From: an uncultured Pseudobdellovibrionaceae bacterium
GTDB lineage: Bacteria; Pseudomonadota; Alphaproteobacteria; Micavibrionales; Micavibrionaceae
DNA: 32,715 nt
Assembly (NCBI GenBank): GCA_964430725.1
Contig: CAYSGL010000001.1
Coordinates: forward strand, 1-32,715
Direction of reading: 5' to 3'
A model generated the notes under the pieces. The model was not told the DNA's origin and ran no database searches. It saw only the letters and a list, made by a program, of their open reading frames with translations. Below are positions 46 through 26,011 of this stretch, in pieces (within the stretch, counting starts at the first letter, position 1; the number at the start of each line of letters is the position of its first letter). A program made the position numbers and the translations under genes.

Positions 46-146
46 AATTAGCAAAAGCTAAAAAACCACCCTGTCGGACGCCCTACCTACCCCCTTTCCA
101 AGTCTAAAAGCCCGGTTTTCCAAGGCGTCAGAATATGAAAACGTCC

Positions 147-3283: not shown

Positions 3284-4030
3284 TTATACGATCCTCATGT
3301 AAAAAGTTGCTGAAATGTTTTTGCTTCTTGTTTCACCTTCTGTGGTTTCAGAAACGCGCGCGTTCGGTGAGTTTGCTGAATTAAAATCAAGCGCTCTTGT
3401 GCCACCAGTGGATTGCGAGATAGCCCATCCATCAGGAAAAGCTGCTACAACATCCGACAGCGCGCCTGATGCTGAAACGGCACCGCCCGTGCCTACGTTT
3501 GAGCGGAATCTACCTGTTATTCTTTGCATTTGATCAAACTGATGCTCACCACTTGTGCCTCTAGCTCGAAGGAATGCTTCCATCGTATTGAGAAGATATA
3601 TATTTTCTCCGGCCAGCGGACCTATAGAAATTTCTGCGGTGGCAATGATTAAAGGAGAAGCGCCTGTAATGGATTCGTTGATAAGTAATCCTTCATTGTA
3701 CTCACCATCACCTGTCAGACCTGCAGTGAGCTTTATATATTTTTTTGATCCACTATTGCTTGGGGCAACAACGCCATCTAAATGATCCCAAAGGGCGAAC
3801 GGCTCGCCGATTCTCTTATGTCCTGATAGGATTTCTATCGCATCGATAAGTTGCGTAAGATTGTTTTCATCTGGCGATAGCCCTGCAGCAGTGATAGCTG
3901 AAACAATTTCACGCATTGGGTGCTCGATTGCGGCGGCTGGCACTGCCGAGCCTTCTGTGCCAGTACCGGGGTTTCCGTCAACATAAGGGTCGTTAGGATC
4001 GGCCGCGCCGATGGGGGCGATATATTTCAT
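3284..4030 (-). CDS. Tail fibre protein
   Basis: 248 aa. The N-terminus (DPNDPYVDGNPGTGTEGSAVPAAAIEHPMREIV) is typical of fibre baseplate-attachment regions. The C-terminus (GEHQF...ETRSKNISATFYMRIV) resembles a tail-collar-type receptor domain. Confidence 0.75.
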   Translation of the reverse strand: MKYIAPIGAADPNDPYVDGNPGTGTEGSAVPAAAIEHPMREIVSAITAAGLSPDENNLTQLIDAIEILSGHKRIGEPFALWDHLDGVVAPSNSGSKKYIKLTAGLTGDGEYNEGLLINESITGASPLIIATAEISIGPLAGENIYLLNTMEAFLRARGTSGEHQFDQMQRITGRFRSNVGTGGAVSASGALSDVVAAFPDGWAISQSTGGTRALDFNSANSPNARVSETTEGETRSKNISATFYMRIV

Positions 4031-9030: not shown

Positions 9031-10559
9031 TAGTTCGCCCCCATCACCAAGCCTGTATCCAAACGATAATCGAGACGGCGGTCATTCGGCGTGGCCTGCG
9101 CAACGCGAGGCTGGCCTTCAGCATCGATCTTGATATGCAATGTGCCGCCTGCATCAACTTTCTGATTTTGAAAGACCGGGCTTCTAGCGACCGGCACGGC
9201 AGGACCGAGGGGAACCGGCGTTACATCTGCTCGCTCATCACGTTGAAACCTGTCAACGATAACGCTACGGAGCCTGCTGCCAATATTTAATCCTGCGCCG
9301 ATAACGCCGACGGCGTCGATCAAAGGTTTCAGCAAATTCATAATGTATTCTGCTGCGCTGGCAAATGTGGCCTTGATGCCCTGCCATAAATTGGAAAAAA
9401 AGCTTTTCACTTTTGTCCAGTTTTTGATTAAGAGATAAGCGCCGCCGGCAATAGCGGCGATACCCAGTGTGATCCAACCGATCGGCGTAGTCAGTAGGGC
9501 AACACCAAAAGCTTTAATGGCTCCAGCTGCGAGAAGTGCTAAAGGAATGATGGCTTTTATTCCAACGGCAATTACCGTAAACAGCGGAGCAATGGTAGCA
9601 AAACCAAGAACGGTGAAATGGATTGCCATCATAAATTGGCCGAACCCTATAATTAACGGGCCTATCAATGCCATAATTAATGCGCCTTTCACAAGAAATC
9701 CCTGTATTCCAACTGGGAGTTTGGCAAAAGCATCCGCCATTTCGCTGATAGTGGAAGAAAGACCTCTGATAAATTTTCCTATCTCTAAACGTTCAGCGAC
9801 GACGCGGCCAACTTTATCCAACGATGTCGAGACAGAGTCGCCGAAGTTCGAAAAGGCTCCCTCCAAAATTGCCATTTGTTCTTCCATTGCACCGGCAAAT
9901 TGCACATCCCCGATTTGTCGTAGATATTCCTGTATTTCTTCGGCATTTTTCCTGATTACTGTTTTTTTTCCTTGAAATACAAAAGCAACCTTATTTCCTT
10001 GCTGGCTGGCTTTTATGCCAAATTCTTTTAAACGTTCAAATTCGCCTGTACTAGCATCAGCAACGGCTTCGATGAATTGATTCAAATCCTTTCCCATCGC
10101 CGAGGCAGTATTGCCGTATGAGCGTAGAGCTTCCATAGATGGATCGAGTCCTAAAGCCTTCAGTTTAATGACTGCGCTTAAAACTTGTTCTAGTTGAAAT
10201 GGGGTCGTCGAGGCAAAATCAAGAATTTGCTTAAAAATACTATCTGCGGCAGCCTGTGAACCAAAGACTGTTTTCAATGACGCTTTTAATTTTTCGAACT
10301 GAGCCGTTGTTTTAACGGATAAGTAGCCGAAACCAATCAATGGAGCTGTTATTTTTGTCGACCATCCAACACCGAAATCTGTAACCGCCTTACTGGTATT
10401 TTTTAAAGCATCTCTAAGAGCTTTTGTTTTCTCTAACATACCTTGAAGGGCTTGTTTATAGCGCTGTGCCATCGACCGAACCGGTCGTGTCATCCGGTCG
10501 ATAGCCTCAAGTATTAATTTTACGCGCAAGCTGTTCATTGATCTTCCCTGCTTGTTCAC
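9030..10559 (-). CDS. Tail tape measure protein
   Basis: 509 aa with a helical N-terminal half and a long hydrophobic/Gly-Ala-rich segment, located after the tail chaperone. The track start is GTG at 10559. An ATG at 10538 preceded by AGGGAAG is an alternative start. Confidence 0.85.
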   Translation of the reverse strand: MNKQGRSMNSLRVKLILEAIDRMTRPVRSMAQRYKQALQGMLEKTKALRDALKNTSKAVTDFGVGWSTKITAPLIGFGYLSVKTTAQFEKLKASLKTVFGSQAAADSIFKQILDFASTTPFQLEQVLSAVIKLKALGLDPSMEALRSYGNTASAMGKDLNQFIEAVADASTGEFERLKEFGIKASQQGNKVAFVFQGKKTVIRKNAEEIQEYLRQIGDVQFAGAMEEQMAILEGAFSNFGDSVSTSLDKVGRVVAERLEIGKFIRGLSSTISEMADAFAKLPVGIQGFLVKGALIMALIGPLIIGFGQFMMAIHFTVLGFATIAPLFTVIAVGIKAIIPLALLAAGAIKAFGVALLTTPIGWITLGIAAIAGGAYLLIKNWTKVKSFFSNLWQGIKATFASAAEYIMNLLKPLIDAVGVIGAGLNIGSRLRSVIVDRFQRDERADVTPVPLGPAVPVARSPVFQNQKVDAGGTLHIKIDAEGQPRVAQATPNDRRLDYRLDTGLVMGAN

Positions 10560-16549: not shown

Positions 16550-17122
16550 TTAGGCAGCCTGTTCTTTCAGCGCTTCCTTCATGTCATCCGGCTTGAGACC
16601 GAGCTGGCTGGCGATCTCCAGCGCATCATCATCCAGTTCGCCCTGATTGGCTGGGCGTTCGCCGGTTTTGCTATTCGTGGCGGCGGCAATCACCGGAGCA
16701 GCTTCGATGAATTTTTTGAAGGCATCGGGATTCGAGCTGGCATAATCGAGCGCCCAGTCTTTTTGTGCGGGCGCGATCTTTCCGGCTTTCATGGCCTCGG
16801 CAACGGCAGTCTCTGCTTTGTCGGATGCCAGTGATTTTTGAACGCTGGCCAATTCAGCAGCGGTTTTGTTGAACATGTCCATCGGGACATATTCTTCGGG
16901 ATTGGGTTTTTTCGCGGTCGCCTGAATATCGGCAGCGGCGGTAGCAATTTCCTCGCCCTTGGCCTTTTCGTCCAGGCCCAGGGCTTTCGCCGCCGAAGCC
17001 AGGCTGGTTTGCGTTTCTTTCAGGGTAGCGGCGACTTCTTTGGCTTTGTCGACCACGGCCTGTTCATTTTCCGGCTTTTCAAGGCCGAGGGCAGATGCGA
17101 TTGCGAGTAGATATTTGTCCAT
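16550..17122 (-). CDS. Nested in-frame scaffold protein (Mu Z-like) from an internal start
   Basis: An in-frame ATG (Met161) at 17122 is preceded by GGAGG with an 8-nt spacer (GGAGGAAAACATCATG). It sits at the boundary between the protease-like and helical domains. Confidence 0.5.
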   Translation of the reverse strand: MDKYLLAIASALGLEKPENEQAVVDKAKEVAATLKETQTSLASAAKALGLDEKAKGEEIATAAADIQATAKKPNPEEYVPMDMFNKTAAELASVQKSLASDKAETAVAEAMKAGKIAPAQKDWALDYASSNPDAFKKFIEAAPVIAAATNSKTGERPANQGELDDDALEIASQLGLKPDDMKEALKEQAA

Positions 17123-17602
17123 GATGTTTTCCTCCATATCGTTGGACTGTTGAGACTGCGCTGAGGCGACAGCCTGCATTTCAAAATTGGGGGTATTGGT
17201 GAGTGAAGCGCGCAGAATGCGTGTTACTTCGCCGGTATCCTTGTCATGCCTGAAAACCGGCGAGATATAGCGATACTCTTTATCAGCCATTTCCTGGCGC
17301 GCCGCTGGCGTCCATTCAACATGCGCAAAAAGAGCGCCATCTTTTTCAACCAGTTTTTTAATCCAGCCTGCTGCTTTGACGCGTGTGCCCTTGGGGGCGA
17401 GATCAGTTTCATGGTCACGGTCGATCACCAGGTCAACCATGGGGCGGAGGCTTGCGGCGATGACGCCGGCAGGATTGGTGAGGTAATAAGGACCTCTCCC
17501 ATCAAAACCTTTCACTTCGCCGGCCGGAAAAATCGGAATAAGCGCGATATCATCTCCATCCGGCAATTTTACAAAGGTGTTTGCTTGCAAAAATTGTTTC
17601 AT
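16550..17602 (-). CDS. Head maturation protease/scaffold (Mu I-like)
   Basis: 350 aa. The N-terminal half (LIPIFPAGEVKGFDGRGPYYL...) resembles Mu I. The C-terminal half is Ala/Lys/Glu-rich and helical. There is no SD; CCTCC precedes the ATG. Confidence 0.85.
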   Translation of the reverse strand: MKQFLQANTFVKLPDGDDIALIPIFPAGEVKGFDGRGPYYLTNPAGVIAASLRPMVDLVIDRDHETDLAPKGTRVKAAGWIKKLVEKDGALFAHVEWTPAARQEMADKEYRYISPVFRHDKDTGEVTRILRASLTNTPNFEMQAVASAQSQQSNDMEENIMDKYLLAIASALGLEKPENEQAVVDKAKEVAATLKETQTSLASAAKALGLDEKAKGEEIATAAADIQATAKKPNPEEYVPMDMFNKTAAELASVQKSLASDKAETAVAEAMKAGKIAPAQKDWALDYASSNPDAFKKFIEAAPVIAAATNSKTGERPANQGELDDDALEIASQLGLKPDDMKEALKEQAA

Positions 17603-17637
17603 GGAGGCATGGTATGAGTATCAGCCCCATCAAATCA

Positions 17638-17655
17638 GTCGGACTATTGGCCTAC
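17638..17655. promoter_or_regulatory. Imperfect dyad GTAGGC-CAATAG-TCCGAC (read on the minus strand); candidate Mor/C-type activator site for the head operon
   Basis: It lies exactly 35 nt upstream of the I ATG (17602), the same spacing as the related perfect dyad upstream of lys. A -10-like TACCAT (17614-17609) would place +1 at the ATG. Confidence 0.45.
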
Positions 17656-17793
17656 CGCCCCCCTTGGAAGGCATGGGCTATACTCGTGTCATTGAAAACG
17701 GAGATATCTCGAAGACCGACCGATGGAGGCCGCCATGAAAAAGTAATCCGACCACATAATTTTCTATAACGTTTGAAAAATACAGATTTGCAT

Positions 17794-17820
17794 GGCCCGG
17801 AAGAAATCCGGGCCTTTTTC
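17794..17820 (+). terminator. Rho-independent terminator on the plus strand, opposite to all genes
   Basis: GGCCCGG-AAGAAAT-CCGGGCC is followed by TTTTT. On the minus strand there is no T-run after the hairpin. Confidence 0.6.
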
Positions 17821-18039
17821 ATGGCCGAACCCCCTTTTAAAAACCCCACAGCGCCTTCAAAAACGCCTCGGATTATTTTTCATGGGGAACGGGGGCGGCC
17901 AAGCCCTCTCAGCGCGCTCCTGAGGGCTTAAAAACAGAAATCAAAGATTGTTAACATAAGATTAAAAACGGGGGCGCTCAGGCTTGCTTTTTTCTGAAAA
18001 ATACAGGACAATGGAATTGTCGTGGTAGGAGCCTTACCT

Positions 18040-18096
18040 CCCTCAAAGCGACAAAACGGGCCGGCCAATCGTAAAGGGATGCCGGCCTATTTTTTT
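18040..18096. terminator. Bidirectional intrinsic terminator at the end of the F-like gene
   Basis: The stem is GGCCGGC (18059-18065) paired with GCCGGCC (18081-18087), with a 15-nt loop. On the minus strand it is followed by CGTTTTGTCGCTTTG, and on the plus strand by TATTTTTTT. Confidence 0.55.
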
Positions 18097-19493: not shown

Positions 19494-21044
19494 TCATTCA
19501 TCCAGATCGATTTCAAGATTGCCGGCGACCCGTGCTTTGAATCCCATGCGCGCCAGTTGATTGGCCAGATTGTTCATATCGATCTCGCCGGCAAGCGTTA
19601 AAAGCTTTTGACGAAAATCGTCAAAGTCTTCGCTCTGATCGGCGGCTTCTTCGAGCAGGTTTACGATCGGATTCATAATTTCTTCGAAATCGCCCTCGAT
19701 CTCATCGATGGCCTGATCAATCGCATCTTTATCTGTGTTGGGCCGCGCGGAGGCCAGCGATGTATTCTCTGGCGGGTTATTGACAGGAGCGGACGCTGCC
19801 GGTTTTTGCAGGATATCATTATCATCGACCGGCGCGGGAAGTCCTAGCTTTTCACGCAGCTTCGATGAGCTGATTTTAAGGCCGATATTAACGGCACGCT
19901 CGGCTGTCATGGAGAGCTTGTCGCTGTCGATCTGCTCCGATCGGCCGATCCGCAGGCGCGGGTAGCGTTTTTGCTCCCCATAATTTAAATCGATCATCGG
20001 CCGGATGAGTTGTTCATTCAGCGTGGCGGCAAGCTGACGGGCATCGGCGCGCTCAATGTCTTCCCGCACCTCATTGTGTTCTTTCGACACGGCATGGCCG
20101 CCGGAAATCGCATCAACCGTGGTTGTCTGCCCAAGAACGGCTTTGGAGATCTGCTGATCGCAGAATTTACACAGGCGGTCGAAAACATCGGCTGTATTGG
20201 TTTTGCCGGCCGCCTCGATAAATTCGATTTGCATGGACTCTGGAATAATGGCGGCCGCATCCGAGCCGATCTGTGCAACGGCGCGACGGAGAACATCTTT
20301 ATCCGCCTTGCTTGCGCCCGGTCCGTATTTACCCATGCGGATTGGCTGGCCATAGGCTTCGGCAAAGATTACCCAGTCCTTGATGCTGAAATTCTTGAAC
20401 AGCCACATCCACGCGCACGGCCGGATAATGCCTCCACGGACAGTGATACCGGATTTTGCCTTGTGGCGATGTACGATGAATTTATATGGTGCCAGGGGAA
20501 CGGGAATATTATCGTCGCCCTTCATCATCAGTGTTTCCCGATCGGTGCGGTCAAATTCAAACCATCGGGGATCGCGCCATTTCAAATCTTTGGGCAGCCA
20601 GATGCTGTCATTGACATCCCAGAGAATTTCGACGACTGAATAGCCCTTCCCAATTGCATCGAGAATATCAAAAATTTCTGTTTCCAGATGATCGCGGCGC
20701 AACCAATCCTCGATCAACTGGGCGTTGCGCACATCCACATCATTCTCACTCGCGGGTTCGACGGTGATCTCCAACTGCGATACGGCGCGTTTGCGTGTGC
20801 CGATCACTGCAAGGTAGTGCGTGTCTTTCTCCTCGATCTCTTCAGCCATCTCCAGATAGGCTGTCGCATCATTATCCTCCGTTGCGCGCAGGATGCGTGC
20901 CAGGCGACCCGGATTAAGGCCGGTAGTTTGCTCGGCTGTTAAAAAGCTGCGGACACCCGTAATACTGGGCGTGGCCTGTTCTTCCAATAGCTCCGATCGG
21001 CGCAGCGGGTTCCCGTATTGATCGACGAGTTTTGTCATTACCAT
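19494..21044 (-). CDS. Portal protein (Mu gp29-like, DUF935-like)
   Basis: 516 aa with portal-like sequence, positioned after the large terminase and overlapping its stop. Confidence 0.9.
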   Translation of the reverse strand: MVMTKLVDQYGNPLRRSELLEEQATPSITGVRSFLTAEQTTGLNPGRLARILRATEDNDATAYLEMAEEIEEKDTHYLAVIGTRKRAVSQLEITVEPASENDVDVRNAQLIEDWLRRDHLETEIFDILDAIGKGYSVVEILWDVNDSIWLPKDLKWRDPRWFEFDRTDRETLMMKGDDNIPVPLAPYKFIVHRHKAKSGITVRGGIIRPCAWMWLFKNFSIKDWVIFAEAYGQPIRMGKYGPGASKADKDVLRRAVAQIGSDAAAIIPESMQIEFIEAAGKTNTADVFDRLCKFCDQQISKAVLGQTTTVDAISGGHAVSKEHNEVREDIERADARQLAATLNEQLIRPMIDLNYGEQKRYPRLRIGRSEQIDSDKLSMTAERAVNIGLKISSSKLREKLGLPAPVDDNDILQKPAASAPVNNPPENTSLASARPNTDKDAIDQAIDEIEGDFEEIMNPIVNLLEEAADQSEDFDDFRQKLLTLAGEIDMNNLANQLARMGFKARVAGNLEIDLDE

Positions 21045-22582
21045 GCTCCTTCATTGTTGCCGAAAGCGAAAGATCGCTTGGCTTCGTCCTCATCATCATC
21101 GATATCAAGGTTCGTGCCCTTTGATCTTTGTCCGCCGAAAGCCGGCGTGTAATCATATTCTTCAACATCCTGCCTAGAAGACCAGTAGGCCATCACTGCT
21201 GCGATCAAAGAGTCACCGTGGCGTTTGCCGCCATCCTTGCCAGTGGTTCTCTTATCGCGAATCTGCGGGATTCCGCCTTCAACTGTGGCTGCGCGGTGAT
21301 CGTCTTTGATATCGGCATCGCGCGGCAGGATGATGGTTGCATCCTCTAGTGCGCCCTTGTATGGCGGAAAAGCTTCCAGATACCAGGATCGCGACGTCAT
21401 AATTTGCTGAAAACGACCGACCCCATAGCGCTGGGCCGTCTCTTCCGCCATCTGCTGGCCTAGGCCGCGCGCGTCGGCTGCGCCGCTGTAAAAGCGCGGC
21501 AGGCGATCCATGATGTACCAGAGGATTTGTAGCTGCTGGCGGAACGGCATGTTTCTCAGCTCCACCACAAAGGGTGTGTGTCTGACCAGATTGCGCTCGA
21601 TGACGAAAGGCCAGAACACTGTCAGGTCACCGGTGCGTCCTGCGTCACCGCCAATGGTAGAGCGAAGATTCGGATCAAGCGCATCGAGCAAGGGTTTCAG
21701 TTTTTCTTTGCACCAATCCTCTACTTCACGGTTTCGGACCTCTTCTGGCTGCATGGCAAAGGCATCCGGCATTTCCAACCGCAAAATGGGTATGCCCTCT
21801 TGCATACGACTTTCGATCAGCGCCGTCGTCAACCATGTGCCCGATGATAGACGCGGAATACAAAACAATTCTTCGTCAGCGCCATCGCCATAAAATTTAA
21901 TCAGCTCGTCGCGCCATTCCCGCTCTGCCGCAAGGCTATATGTTTTCCCTGTTGTCAGACAGATCCGCTCATACAATCCGTCTTTCAGGGCATCATCGAG
22001 ATCGACACGCAAAATGGCGTAATTGTTTTTCTTGGCGCGAGCATCAAGAATATATTCATTGAACGGGTTGGATGCGCCGTCATGCGTAGAGATAACGAGC
22101 ACTTTACCGCCCCAGATCAGCAAGGCGAGCGCGGCTTTCATAAGCTCTTTTAAATCGTCATGGAAGGCGGCTTCATCAATAATTACATAGCCTTGTCTGC
22201 CGCGTAGGGAGCGCGGCCGGCTGGTCAGGGCGACAATCTCATAACCGGAATCAAACTTGATGCGGAATGCCTGTATTTCTTTATCGTTATCATCCTTGAA
22301 GATAAACTCTTCCACCTCTTGTGCGGCATATTTGAAATTCTTCGCCCACATTGCGCAGACGTCGATAAATTCCCGCGTCATATCGAGATTAAAGCCGATG
22401 TAAAATACTTTCATGCCTCCGGCTTTTCGGCTTGCCGCAGCCGTCAGAACGGCATCGGCGCCAATACCCCATGTCATCCCGATCCGACGGGATTTTTCAC
22501 AAAAAACAACTTTGTGCTTGGCAACCAGCTGGATCAGCTTTGCCTGGTAGCGCAACAGAACGGCGGGCAGCTTGCTGGTCAT
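21038..22582 (-). CDS. Terminase large subunit (Mu gp28-like)
   Basis: 514 aa with an N-terminal ATPase region (CEKSRRIGMTWG) and a C-terminal nuclease-like half, in the conserved position. Confidence 0.9.
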   Translation of the reverse strand: MTSKLPAVLLRYQAKLIQLVAKHKVVFCEKSRRIGMTWGIGADAVLTAAASRKAGGMKVFYIGFNLDMTREFIDVCAMWAKNFKYAAQEVEEFIFKDDNDKEIQAFRIKFDSGYEIVALTSRPRSLRGRQGYVIIDEAAFHDDLKELMKAALALLIWGGKVLVISTHDGASNPFNEYILDARAKKNNYAILRVDLDDALKDGLYERICLTTGKTYSLAAEREWRDELIKFYGDGADEELFCIPRLSSGTWLTTALIESRMQEGIPILRLEMPDAFAMQPEEVRNREVEDWCKEKLKPLLDALDPNLRSTIGGDAGRTGDLTVFWPFVIERNLVRHTPFVVELRNMPFRQQLQILWYIMDRLPRFYSGAADARGLGQQMAEETAQRYGVGRFQQIMTSRSWYLEAFPPYKGALEDATIILPRDADIKDDHRAATVEGGIPQIRDKRTTGKDGGKRHGDSLIAAVMAYWSSRQDVEEYDYTPAFGGQRSKGTNLDIDDDEDEAKRSFAFGNNEGAW

Positions 22583-24966: not shown

Positions 24967-25578
24967 TCACGAGTAAGCCCGATTGAGCCAGCCTTTAAGA
25001 TATTTGCGCGAGGCTGGACGACGCGCTGCCAATTGGCGGTAGAATCCGGCCGCTTCCGATCGCAAGGCGGCCAGAAGAGCGGGCGTATAGCTTTTGTTGG
25101 ATAAAGAGATGGTTTGCTGTCCTATAATCCCGTCTTCGGATACCGCTTCCTTGGTGACAGCGCGCAACGCACGCTGAAGAAGAATGTGGGCCTGCTTTGG
25201 CCCCATGTTCACGCCAAAATCGAAAACTTTCATCGCAATGGCAGGTGCCAGAGCCTCATAGGGATAAGGGTCCCAAAAACGCAGGCGGTAGATACGGATG
25301 GCATCCTCGGCCTTAATGCGGCGCATATCGCGCTCGTCAATCAATCCGTCCTTGTTCAGATCGAGGTCAAGTTCCCCGTCACCATCGAGATCACCCAATT
25401 CTTTGGCCAGGCGCAGTGAAATGCCATTTTTTGTAGCGCCTCCGGGATCGTCAGGATCGTTCGACCATAATCCTTCATGTTGCAAGGTGATTTTGATCGC
25501 CTGATCGAAAACAGAGTTTTCGGTCGGCGGCAATGTTTCGAAGCGCTTGGGCTTGCTGTCTTTCCCCCAGTTCGTCAT
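24967..25578 (-). CDS. Endolysin, GH108-type lysozyme domain with a C-terminal peptidoglycan-binding-like region
   Basis: 203 aa. HEGLWSNDPDDPGGATKNGIS matches the GH108 catalytic motif (EGG..DP.D.GG.T..GI), and the C-terminus reads YLKGWLNRAYS. There is no signal or SAR sequence. The ATG has no SD. Confidence 0.85.
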   Translation of the reverse strand: MTNWGKDSKPKRFETLPPTENSVFDQAIKITLQHEGLWSNDPDDPGGATKNGISLRLAKELGDLDGDGELDLDLNKDGLIDERDMRRIKAEDAIRIYRLRFWDPYPYEALAPAIAMKVFDFGVNMGPKQAHILLQRALRAVTKEAVSEDGIIGQQTISLSNKSYTPALLAALRSEAAGFYRQLAARRPASRKYLKGWLNRAYS

Positions 25579-25613
25579 GGGAGAATGATCGGATATATTC
25601 GTGAGGAAAATTA

Positions 25614-25631
25614 GTAGGCCTTCTTGCCTAC
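25614..25631. promoter_or_regulatory. Perfect dyad GTAGGC-N6-GCCTAC; candidate Mor/C-type activator site for the lysis/late operon
   Basis: It overlaps the mor-like stop codon and lies exactly 35 nt upstream of the lys ATG (25578). A -10-like GATCAT (25590-25585) would place +1 at the ATG. Confidence 0.5.
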
Positions 25632-26011
25632 AGGTCGAGATTTAATTGATTGCTGTTTTCTTCTTCATTAACGATCCGCCGTACCTGGCGAATGGAAATG
25701 CGCAAATTCGCTGAAATTCGCACAACCGGCATCCCATCACGGTGCATACGCAATATCCTAGCTTTTCGTCCGGCCTTGACCGGCACCTCAAAATGCATGC
25801 CACCGTAAATCTGACCGATTTTTTTCGCCGCGTCCAGCCCCAGACAAACAGCCAGCGGGGAAGCGGGACCTGGATTAGCCGGAATGTAAAGGCGGCGGCC
25901 GCCCAATTCTTCACTCAGCTGAAGAAATCCATCCTCGCCGATAATTTTCTCTAAACTGGCGATTGTTGGTGTTTCCGACAGGTTATCGAGATCAATCGCA
26001 TCAAAAGTCAT
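25628..26011 (-). CDS. mor: Mor/C-family late transcription activator
   Basis: 127 aa from the ATG at 26011 (the track ORF extends to 26164). GGRRLYIP and the C-terminal HTH (VVRISANLRISIRQVRRIV) parallel Mu Mor. It lies downstream of gemA, as in Mu. Confidence 0.8.
   Translation of the reverse strand: MTFDAIDLDNLSETPTIASLEKIIGEDGFLQLSEELGGRRLYIPANPGPASPLAVCLGLDAAKKIGQIYGGMHFEVPVKAGRKARILRMHRDGMPVVRISANLRISIRQVRRIVNEEENSNQLNLDL

What the first reader, a model, noticed from the sequence alone, without database searches (positions are those of the whole stretch)
25579..25631. Perfect dyad GTAGGC-N6-GCCTAC overlapping the mor stop codon, exactly 35 nt from an SD-less lys start
Read on the minus strand, the Mor-like gene ends ...CTG TAG inside GTAGGCAAGAAGGCCTAC (25631-25614). 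Thirty-five nt later is the lys ATG (25578), preceded by TCTCCC rather than a purine-rich SD. A -10-like GATCAT (25590-25585) occupies -12 to -7 if +1 is the A of the ATG. That geometry puts the dyad centre at -44.5. This is close to the -43.5 dyad position established for Mu Mor at Pm and for Mu C at its late promoters, which also lack good -35 elements. It suggests that this dyad is the operator of the single Mor/C-family activator encoded just upstream, and that the lysis/late transcript is leaderless or nearly so. An alternative reading is a weak intrinsic terminator (6-bp stem followed by TAATTTT) ending the early operon. Both functions could coexist.
Basis: partly seen in the sequence, partly recalled or inferred. 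Interest (0 to 1): 0.65.

Follow-up and report, generated by a model that had tools for sequence, protein, structure and literature searches.

The report
Activator-dependent leaderless phage late promoter
The small palindrome at the end of this Mu-like phage's regulator gene is most likely where that regulator binds to switch on the lysis gene; the promoter is so compact that the message probably starts at the gene's ATG, making it a variant of the classic phage Mu late promoter.

Summary
A 6-bp perfect dyad is not rare on its own: the window holds 124. The recurrence is what exceeds chance. The only two other >=10/12 matches on the coding strand also lie exactly 35 nt before an ATG. One of them precedes the gpI protease/scaffold gene, the position of Mu's PI promoter.

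Nine related Mu-like phages or prophages were recovered. In four of them the box at the mor stop codon recurs exactly once more, just upstream of gpI. The box sequence differs between phages. In 7 of 10 genomes its dyad centre lies at -44.5 or -44 from the ATG, against 3 of 108 control genes.

Ten of 15 lys/gpI starts carry TAnnnT at exactly -12..-7 and none has a Shine-Dalgarno. Among controls, 0 of 108 have the hexamer and 91 of 108 have an SD. All 15 starts are ATG.

Best reading: a Mor/C-type late promoter with operator at -53..-36 and a weak -35, producing a leaderless lys mRNA and driven by the single Mor-like protein. No RNA or binding data exist. A weak terminator role cannot be excluded but is not conserved. 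This is a new variant of a known kind.

The parts
25628..26011 (-). mor-like gene: 127-aa Mor/C-family activator and the only one in the window. It overlaps the gemA end by 11 nt.
   Evidence: Pfam Mor 24.4 bits against a cut-off of 24.9, plus an HTH_23 hit; 29 of 30 family members hit PF08765; hhalign to Mu Mor E 3e-5 and to Mu C E 2.9e-7; single hit in the six-frame search; family alignment fixes the start and length.
25614..25631 (-). Perfect dyad GTAGGC-AAGAAG-GCCTAC, the predicted operator of the Mor-like dimer. It spans -53..-36 (centre -44.5) relative to the A of the lys ATG. The left arm contains the mor TAG stop (25630-25628).
25609..25614 (-). The -36..-31 region (CTAATT), a poor -35. 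Relatives carry nTGAnn here, 18 bp from the -10. It also begins the TAATTTT run that gives the dyad a terminator-like look.
   Evidence: sequence comparison.
25585..25590 (-). -10-like hexamer GATCAT at -12..-7.
   Evidence: The same position carries TAnnnT in 10 of 15 related lys/gpI promoters and in 0 of 108 control genes.
25576..25578 (-). lys ATG, the predicted transcription start (+1 = A, or -1). It is preceded by TCTCCC with no Shine-Dalgarno.
24967..25578 (-). lys: 203-aa endolysin (GH108 plus PG_binding_3), the first gene of the lysis cassette.
17638..17655 (-). Second copy of the operator, GTAGGC-CAATAG-TCCGAC (10 of 12), at -53..-36 relative to the gpI ATG. PI-equivalent late promoter.
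   Evidence: best local match to the lys promoter falls at the identical register, -53 in both.
17609..17614 (-). -10 hexamer TACCAT at -12..-7 of the gpI start.
   Evidence: TAnnAT-N6-ATGAA is invariant in the alignment of six gpI upstream regions.
16550..17602 (-). gpI-like protease/scaffold gene (350 aa). ATG 17602 is preceded by GCCTCC with no SD.
   Evidence: Homologues in L020-L022 carry PF10123 Mu-like_Pro_N.
21790..21807 (-). Third copy, GTATGC-AAGAGG-GCATAC, inside the TerL ORF. It lies 35 nt before the in-frame ATG 21754-21752 (Met277). Function is unresolved and the -10 position reads GATGCC.

Best explanation
The dyad is the binding site for a dimer of the phage's single Mor/C-family activator, within an activator-dependent sigma-70-type late promoter equivalent to Mu Plys. 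The layout is an operator at -53..-36, a poor -35, a -10 (GATCAT) at -12..-7, and transcription starting at or within 1 nt of the A of the lys ATG. The lysis mRNA is therefore leaderless. A sister promoter with the same layout drives gpI and the head genes.

Mor is made from the early operon (gemA-mor). It then binds both operators, recruits RNA polymerase and turns on lysis and morphogenesis directly, without the separate Mor-to-C step of Mu.

Shown from sequence: the dyad, its recurrence in register, the conserved geometry, the -10 position and the lack of an SD. Inferred: that Mor is the binding protein, the exact start site, and the timing.

A likely corollary (inference) is that lys and gpI, having no SD, are poorly translated from early read-through RNA. 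They would be expressed only when the RNA begins at the AUG.
For: In-window regulon: the three >=10/12 dyad matches on the coding strand all lie 35 nt before an ATG (p about 4.6e-4). One precedes lys and one precedes gpI, matching Mu's Plys and PI (PMC2582627).

Relatives: the box at the mor stop recurs exactly once more, just before gpI, in four loci.
- L009: GGGTGACCTAGCGTC[A/C]CTCTGAT.
- L010: CTG[T/C]AACCATGCAGCATGA.
- L008: CCCCCTCTATTC[T/A]CGCAGC[G/A]TGA.
- L022: CTGACATATGTCAGTCTAAAC[G/A]G.

Dyad position: the best perfect dyad upstream of the first gene after mor is centred at exactly -44.5 in the window, L011, L012, L019 (24-bp perfect palindrome), L020 and L022. L009 has an equal-length 5-bp perfect dyad (GTGAC-N5-GTCAC) centred at -44.0. 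Only 3 of 108 controls fall at -45..-44.

-10 and SD: TAnnnT sits at -12..-7 in 10 of 15 lys/gpI starts, with one more at -13..-8. The SD count is 0 of 15 and all starts are ATG. Controls give 0 of 108 and 91 of 108. TAnnAT-N6-ATGAA is invariant across six gpI upstream regions while the -44 box varies. Most other window genes have clear SDs.

Activator: one Mor/C-family ORF only, with family evidence.

Mu precedent: Pm overlaps the mor stop codon and Plys follows the C stop codon. The C site is centred at -43.5 (PMC2582627) and the Mor dyad spans -51..-36 (PMC4287176).

The two Mor pairs with the most similar HTH regions share half-sites: L008/L010 share GCAGCRTGA and L009/L019 share GGGTGA.
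Against: No transcript 5' end and no binding assay is available. No RNA run holds the window and the one soil metatranscriptome with L009-like words was uninformative.

The window's own -10 (GATCAT) lacks the first T, and its -35 region is poorer than in relatives.

The Mor-like protein scores 0.5 bit under Pfam's Mor cut-off. Foldseek with a high-confidence model (pLDDT 91.7) returned only generic HTH hits, not Mor or C.

Overall correlation between Mor HTH similarity and box similarity is not significant (Spearman 0.24, p 0.23).

L008 and L010 boxes have their short palindrome at about -40, and L021 shows no clear shared box.

The gpI site has two mismatches in one half-site. The third site lies inside a coding region with a poor -10.
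Confidence: 0.75

Rival explanations
1. The dyad is only an intrinsic terminator that ends the early (gemA-mor) operon. The hairpin GUAGGC-AAGAAG-GCCUAC plus UAAUUUU stops RNA polymerase, and the -44.5 geometry is coincidental.
For: The consensus scan lists it as terminator-like, with 6 pairs, 4 of them G-C, and tail TAATTTTCCT. The RNA hairpin folds at -9.5 kcal/mol with z = -2.2. In Mu, TransTermHP-predicted terminators sit at the equivalent places, inside Pm just after mor and at the C stop before Plys. An early/late boundary is a logical place for a terminator.
Against: The scan found no more terminator-like sites than in shuffles (4 against 2.7 +/- 1.5). The U-tract is short and interrupted. 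The gpI copy cannot form the hairpin (z = +1.6) yet keeps the register to the ATG. The dyads in L009, L012, L019, L020 and L022 have no T-run after them. Termination does not explain why the box recurs before gpI, downstream of a strong gpF terminator, or why its distance to the ATG is fixed.
Confidence: 0.07
2. A real late promoter abuts the ATG, but the -44 box is not bound by the Mor-like protein. It could be the site of another phage or host factor, or an UP-like element. Alternatively, transcription starts a few nt upstream, giving a very short leader and not a strictly leaderless mRNA.
For: The link between Mor and the box is by analogy with Mu only. Co-variation between Mor HTH and box is not statistically significant. 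Foldseek did not recover Mor or C. The spacing varies by +/- 1 nt among relatives.
Against: Box sequences differ between phages that share conserved -10 elements. This argues for a phage-specific factor and against a host factor. Mor is the only HTH activator family member adjacent to the site, and the geometry matches Mor/C sites within 1 bp (PMC2582627, PMC4287176). The two closest HTH pairs share half-sites.
Confidence: 0.12
3. It is a chance palindrome with no function. The lys gene is simply translated from the read-through early transcript using a non-SD mechanism.
For: Perfect 6-bp dyads are frequent, with 124 in the window. GTAGGC is not enriched.
Against: Recurrence in register within the window. 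Conservation of dyad position across 7 of 10 genomes against 3 of 108 controls. The -10 and SD contrast with controls.
Confidence: 0.04

Closest known systems
Phage Mu late promoters Plys and PI (activated by C)
   Same: Activator-dependent sigma-70 promoters with a recognisable -10 and no good -35. An imperfect dyad for a Mor/C-family dimer is centred near -43.5 (PMC2582627). One promoter lies in front of the lysis gene directly after the activator gene's stop codon, and one lies in front of gene I. A terminator-like dyad is present at the activator gene's end.
   Different: Here one activator is encoded in the early operon, with no separate C and no middle operon. The operator itself overlaps the activator's stop codon. 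The half-site sequence (GTAGGC) is unrelated. The start codon sits at the predicted +1 with no SD, whereas Mu lys has an annotated RBS and a leader of about 18 nt. No PP or Pmom-type copies were found in the window.
Phage Mu middle promoter Pm (activated by Mor)
   Same: The promoter activated by the protein encoded immediately upstream overlaps that gene's stop codon. Pm is annotated at 9163-9233 and the mor stop is at 9170. A dyad that also scores as a terminator (9179-9200) lies inside it. The Mor dyad spans -51..-36 (PMC4287176), against -53..-36 here.
   Different: Pm drives a middle operon ending in C, not lysis or head genes. It has a leader and an RBS.
Leaderless mRNAs, for example the intragenic leaderless mRNA for Shigella VirF21 (PMC5101355)
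   Same: The -10 hexamer ends 6-7 nt before an ATG that has no SD. Translation is expected from a 5'-terminal AUG. The VirF21 case is a precedent for an intragenic promoter giving a leaderless mRNA for a shorter protein, which bears on the TerL-internal copy.
   Different: Leaderless status here is inferred from sequence geometry only. I found no report of leaderless late operons in Mu-like phages in the searchable library.

Membership tests
Mor/C-dependent promoter (Mu Pm, Plys, PI, PP, Pmom type) | Dyad-symmetry element of about 16 bp centred about 34 bp upstream of the centre of the -10 hexamer (-43.5 from +1), overlapping the -35 region | tested here: met
   The dyad is at -53..-36, centre -44.5, relative to the ATG and to the -10 at -12..-7. 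This is within 1 bp of Mu (PMC2582627, PMC4287176). The +1 is inferred from the -10, not mapped.
Mor/C-dependent promoter (Mu Pm, Plys, PI, PP, Pmom type) | Recognisable -10 hexamer but no canonical -35 | tested here: met
   GATCAT matches TATAAT at 4 of 6, including A-11 and T-7. The -36..-31 region reads CTAATT. The sigma-70 consensus scan found no full promoter on this strand.
Mor/C-dependent promoter (Mu Pm, Plys, PI, PP, Pmom type) | Several promoters of the same phage share the element (a regulon including the lysis and gene-I promoters) | tested here: met
   A second copy lies before gpI at the same register in the window. Paired copies are found in L008, L009, L010 and L022.
Mor/C-dependent promoter (Mu Pm, Plys, PI, PP, Pmom type) | Transcription depends on, and the element is bound by, the phage Mor/C protein | not testable with these tools
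   Needs EMSA or footprinting and reporter assays. Only weak co-variation evidence is available.
Mor/C transcription activator family (PF08765) - the 127-aa protein | Sequence match to the family model above its curated threshold | tested here: inconclusive
   The score is 24.4 bits against a gathering score of 24.9, E 3e-5. Of 30 close family members, 29 hit PF08765 at E <= 0.01, best 2e-8. Profile against Mu C gives prob 93% and E 2.9e-7. Against Mu Mor it gives prob 73.5% and E 3e-5, covering the C-terminal half only.
Mor/C transcription activator family (PF08765) - the 127-aa protein | Fold: N-terminal dimerisation helices, beta-strand linker, C-terminal HTH, similar to solved Mor or C structures | tested here: inconclusive
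   The AF2 model (pLDDT 91.7) has helices, two short strands and a C-terminal three-helix HTH. Foldseek against PDB gave no hit at E <= 0.001 and only HTH-domain matches. The profile against PDB sequences hits 'Late transcription activator C' only at E 0.036.
Mor/C transcription activator family (PF08765) - the 127-aa protein | Genomic position in a transposable phage: after gemA, before the lysis/late genes | tested here: met
   The order GemA (PF06252) - Mor-like - Lys holds in the window and in L019-L023. Mu has the same order.
Intrinsic (Rho-independent) terminator | Stable G+C-rich hairpin directly followed by a U-tract | tested here: inconclusive
   The stem is 6 bp with 4 G-C pairs, -9.5 kcal/mol, and the tail is UAAUUUUCC. 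It passes a lenient scan that finds as many sites in shuffled sequence.
Intrinsic (Rho-independent) terminator | Hairpin plus U-tract conserved at the same place in relatives | tested here: not met
   Dyads are present in relatives, but no T-run follows them in L009, L012, L019, L020 or L022. The gpI copy does not fold.
Leaderless mRNA gene | -10 hexamer ending 6-7 nt upstream of the start codon, no SD, AUG start | tested here: met
   TAnnnT at -12..-7 in 10 of 15 starts, plus one at -13..-8. None of 15 has an SD and all 15 are ATG. Controls give 0 of 108 and 91 of 108. The window's lys site has GATCAT.
Leaderless mRNA gene | Mapped transcript 5' end coincides with the A of the AUG | not testable with these tools
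   No RNA run holds the sequence. The L009-related metatranscriptome was uninformative.

The most novel reading that the evidence does not exclude
In this clade of Mu-like phages, apparently of alphaproteobacteria, late expression may be gated twice by a single Mor-like activator. Because lys and gpI have no SD, they would be translationally silent on early read-through RNA. They would be expressed only from Mor-dependent transcripts that begin at their AUG, so leaderless translation would act as the insulator in place of a terminator or a second activator. In the window phage, a third intragenic copy of the module would additionally produce a leaderless mRNA for an N-terminally truncated TerL (nuclease domain only).
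Probability: 0.2. Interest if true: 0.75.

Novelty: new variant of a known kind. Interest (0 to 1): 0.55.

Why it matters
It gives a concrete, testable regulatory map for an uncultured Mu-like phage: one activator, two or three operators, and leaderless late mRNAs. It also shows that the Mu Mor/C promoter geometry, with a dyad about 34-35 bp upstream of the -10, is conserved across very divergent transposable phages while operator sequences diverge.

The conserved fusion of promoter and start codon explains why gene callers mis-place gpI starts in relatives. It offers a rule (dyad centre -44.5 from the ATG, TAnnnT at -12..-7) for annotating late promoters and true starts in this clade.

If leaderless translation proves to be the device separating early from late expression, that would be a new solution to a classic phage timing problem. 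The Micavibrio aeruginosavorus HCB189 prophage (L009) may offer an isolate-based system in which to test it.

Tried and rejected
- BLAST of the region against 50,697 phage records found no match.
- Single-protein scans for Mor relatives in viral, genome and metagenome contigs found nothing. An alignment of 30 sequences was too diverse for pattern scans. A 6-sequence alignment worked.
- The word-indexed homologue search gave only one Mor relative, and its contig ends 18 nt past the stop.
- Six Logan contigs are identical to the window and carry no information.
- Two wastewater runs sharing words do not cover the region.
- No RNA run holds the window. A soil metatranscriptome related to L009 gave two irrelevant fragments.
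- Rfam found nothing relevant.
- PDB sequence search with the single protein found nothing. Foldseek returned only generic HTH hits.
- Co-variation between Mor HTH identity and box identity over 28 pairs was not significant.
- A search for further late promoters in the window (PP or Pmom equivalents) used the dyad at >=9/12 and the TAnnnT-N6-ATG rule. It gave no convincing extra site.
- I considered that the dyad acts as an RNA hairpin 35 nt upstream of start codons, as a translational element. I rejected this because the gpI copy does not fold and the relatives' boxes are not all hairpins.

Full report
**What is there.** The window is a Mu-like transposable phage from a sludge metagenome, with all genes on the minus strand. 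The order is MuA-like transposase, MuB-like ATPase, DUF3164, GemA (26447-26001), a 127-aa Mor-like protein (26011-25628), a GH108/PG_binding_3 endolysin (25578-24967), lysis-cassette genes, DUF2730, gp27, TerL, portal, gpF, gpI and so on. Every coordinate in the finding is correct. GTAGGC-AAGAAG-GCCTAC occupies 25631-25614. The mor TAG (25630-25628) lies in its left arm. Thirty-five nt separate it from the lys ATG (25578). GATCAT is at -12..-7 and TCTCCC, not an SD, precedes the ATG.

**Is it more than chance?** The dyad alone is not. The window has 124 perfect 6-bp dyads with spacers 0-10, and GTAGGC is not enriched. With up to 2 mismatches the pattern occurs three times against 0.62 expected. 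Read on the coding strand, all three are followed after exactly 35 nt by an ATG, which has a chance of about 4.6e-4 for the two extra sites.
- Site 2 (17655-17638, GTAGGC-caatag-TCCGAC) precedes the gpI protease/scaffold gene. It has TACCAT at -12..-7 and GCCTCC before the ATG, again without an SD. This is the position of Mu's PI promoter.
- Site 3 (21807-21790, GTATGC-aagagg-GCATAC) is inside TerL. It is discussed under "The third copy" further on.

**Relatives.** The Mor-like protein is rare in the word-indexed database, but it has 1,143 relatives in the exhaustive search. Using a small alignment and Lys homologues I recovered nine informative loci:
- a Rickettsiales MAG (L008);
- a Micavibrio aeruginosavorus prophage (L009);
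- three IMG/VR contigs (L010-L012);
- four metagenomic contigs (L019-L022).

Lys homologues are named from Alphaproteobacteria, so the host is probably an alphaproteobacterium.

In L008, L009, L010 and L022 the 20-25-nt box lying at or just after the mor stop recurs exactly once more in the 20-kb locus, immediately upstream of gpI. The box sequence is different in each phage, for example GGGTGACCTAGCGTC in L009 and CTGACATATGTCAGTCTAAAC in L022. L019, which has no gpI, carries a 24-bp perfect palindrome at the mor stop.

The position, however, is fixed. The best perfect dyad upstream of the first gene after mor is centred at exactly -44.5 from the A of the ATG in six of ten genomes, and L009 has an equal-length 5-bp perfect dyad at -44.0. 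Only 3 of 108 control genes fall at -45..-44. In L012 the downstream gene is a DUF2730 protein and not lys, yet the geometry is the same.

**Leaderless start.**
- Hexamer: across 15 lys/gpI starts, 10 have TAnnnT at exactly -12..-7 and one more has it at -13..-8.
- SD and start codon: none of the 15 has an SD-like tetramer and all 15 use ATG.
- Controls: among 108 other genes of the same genomes, none has TAnnnT at either position and 91 have an SD.
- gpI alignment: in six gpI upstream regions the columns TAnnAT-N6-ATGAA are invariant while the -44 box varies.
- Weak -35: nTGAnn sits at -36..-31 in most relatives, 18 bp from the -10.
- Gene calls: gene callers mis-set the gpI start in L021 and L022 to downstream ATGs, as expected if there is no SD.

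Together these features define a sigma-70-type promoter in register with the start codon. The late lys and gpI mRNAs most likely begin at, or 1 nt before, the AUG.

**Who binds?** Only one Mor/C-family ORF exists in the window. Its family assignment rests on several lines:
- a Pfam Mor hit 0.5 bit under threshold;
- 29 of 30 close relatives hitting PF08765;
- profile matches to Mu C (E 2.9e-7) and Mu Mor (E 3e-5);
- synteny after gemA.

A confident AF2 model did not retrieve Mor or C by Foldseek, so the fold test is inconclusive. The two Mor pairs with the most similar HTH regions share half-sites (L008/L010 and L009/L019). The overall correlation is not significant. That Mor binds the box is therefore inference by analogy.

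**Comparison with Mu.**
- The literature states that C binds a 16-bp imperfect dyad centred at -43.5 in promoters with a -10 but no -35 (Plys, PI, PP, Pmom; PMC2582627). The Mor dyad in Pm spans -51..-36 (PMC4287176).
- In the Mu record, Pm (9163-9233) overlaps the mor stop codon (9170) and contains a predicted terminator (9179-9200). Plys follows the C stop, where another predicted terminator sits. Mu lys has an RBS and a leader.
- The window shows the same design compressed: one activator, an operator on its own stop codon, direct control of the lysis and head promoters, and no leader.

**Terminator alternative.** The hairpin is modest (-9.5 kcal/mol, z -2.2) with a short U-tract. It passes a lenient scan that is no richer than shuffles. 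Relatives keep the dyad but not a T-run, and the gpI copy does not fold. A weak, lineage-specific terminator role can coexist with the operator role, as the Mu annotation suggests. It does not explain the conserved register or the recurrence.

**The third copy.** The TerL-internal module keeps a perfect palindrome through a symmetric change. It shares 41 of 76 nt with the lys promoter, the best non-self match in the window. It sits 35 nt before an in-frame ATG (Met277, at the domain boundary) that is absent from relatives' TerL. Its -10 position reads GATGCC. It may be an extra Mor site, an intragenic leaderless promoter (precedent: VirF21, PMC5101355), or chance. This is unresolved.

**Verdict.** No transcript mapping or binding data exist. 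I rate it a new variant of a known kind, a Mor/C-type late promoter that is leaderless and driven by a single activator. I found no report of leaderless late operons in Mu-like phages in the searchable library.

Noticed in passing
window 21752-21807 (minus strand), inside TerL ORF 21038-22582: Third copy of the dyad module, GTATGC-aagagg-GCATAC, lies 35 nt before an in-frame ATG (Met277 of TerL, at the ATPase/nuclease boundary). It shares 41 of 76 nt with the lys promoter region. The Met and the dyad are absent from the TerL of relatives, and the -10 position is poor (GATGCC).
   Followed up: partly
window 16882 (minus strand), inside gpI ORF 16550-17602: An in-frame internal ATG is preceded by GAATAT plus 6 nt and has no SD. 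It would give a 110-aa C-terminal product, which is reminiscent of Mu's scaffold gpZ made from within gene I.
   Followed up: no
window 17603-18086; L009 18137-18583; L020 17193-17641; L021 9533-9965: A non-coding gap of about 450 nt between gpF and gpI is present in all relatives. It has a strong terminator after gpF and several conserved blocks (for example TTTAAGCCCnTACAGCCC, GTCTGCGGCAAC, TTAAATGGGGTCTGG) of unknown function. No Rfam family matches.
   Followed up: partly
window 25330-25400 (Lys residues ~61-84): The GH108 endolysin carries an acidic DxDxDG-type insert (LGDLDGDGELDLDLNKDGLIDERD) that looks like EF-hand or dockerin calcium-binding loops.
   Followed up: no
L008 10460-10510; L010 7440-7490; L011 ~3700-3730: In three relatives the 5' part of the lys ORF, which encodes the N-terminal extension, contains a strong hairpin followed by a T-run about 30-90 nt after the ATG. 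This is terminator-like within coding sequence and could be an attenuator.
   Followed up: no
L021 ~9966 versus called 10032; L022 ~18196 versus called 18268: Automatic gene calls place the gpI start at downstream ATGs. The invariant TAnnAT-N6-ATGAA and, in most relatives, an MK..LQA-like N-terminus argue for the upstream SD-less ATG.
   Followed up: yes
window 73-90 (minus strand), near the contig end: A 9/12 match to the dyad (GTAGGTAGGGCGTCCGAC) is followed by a T-run. There is no ATG at the +36 register, and matches at this level are common by chance.
   Followed up: no
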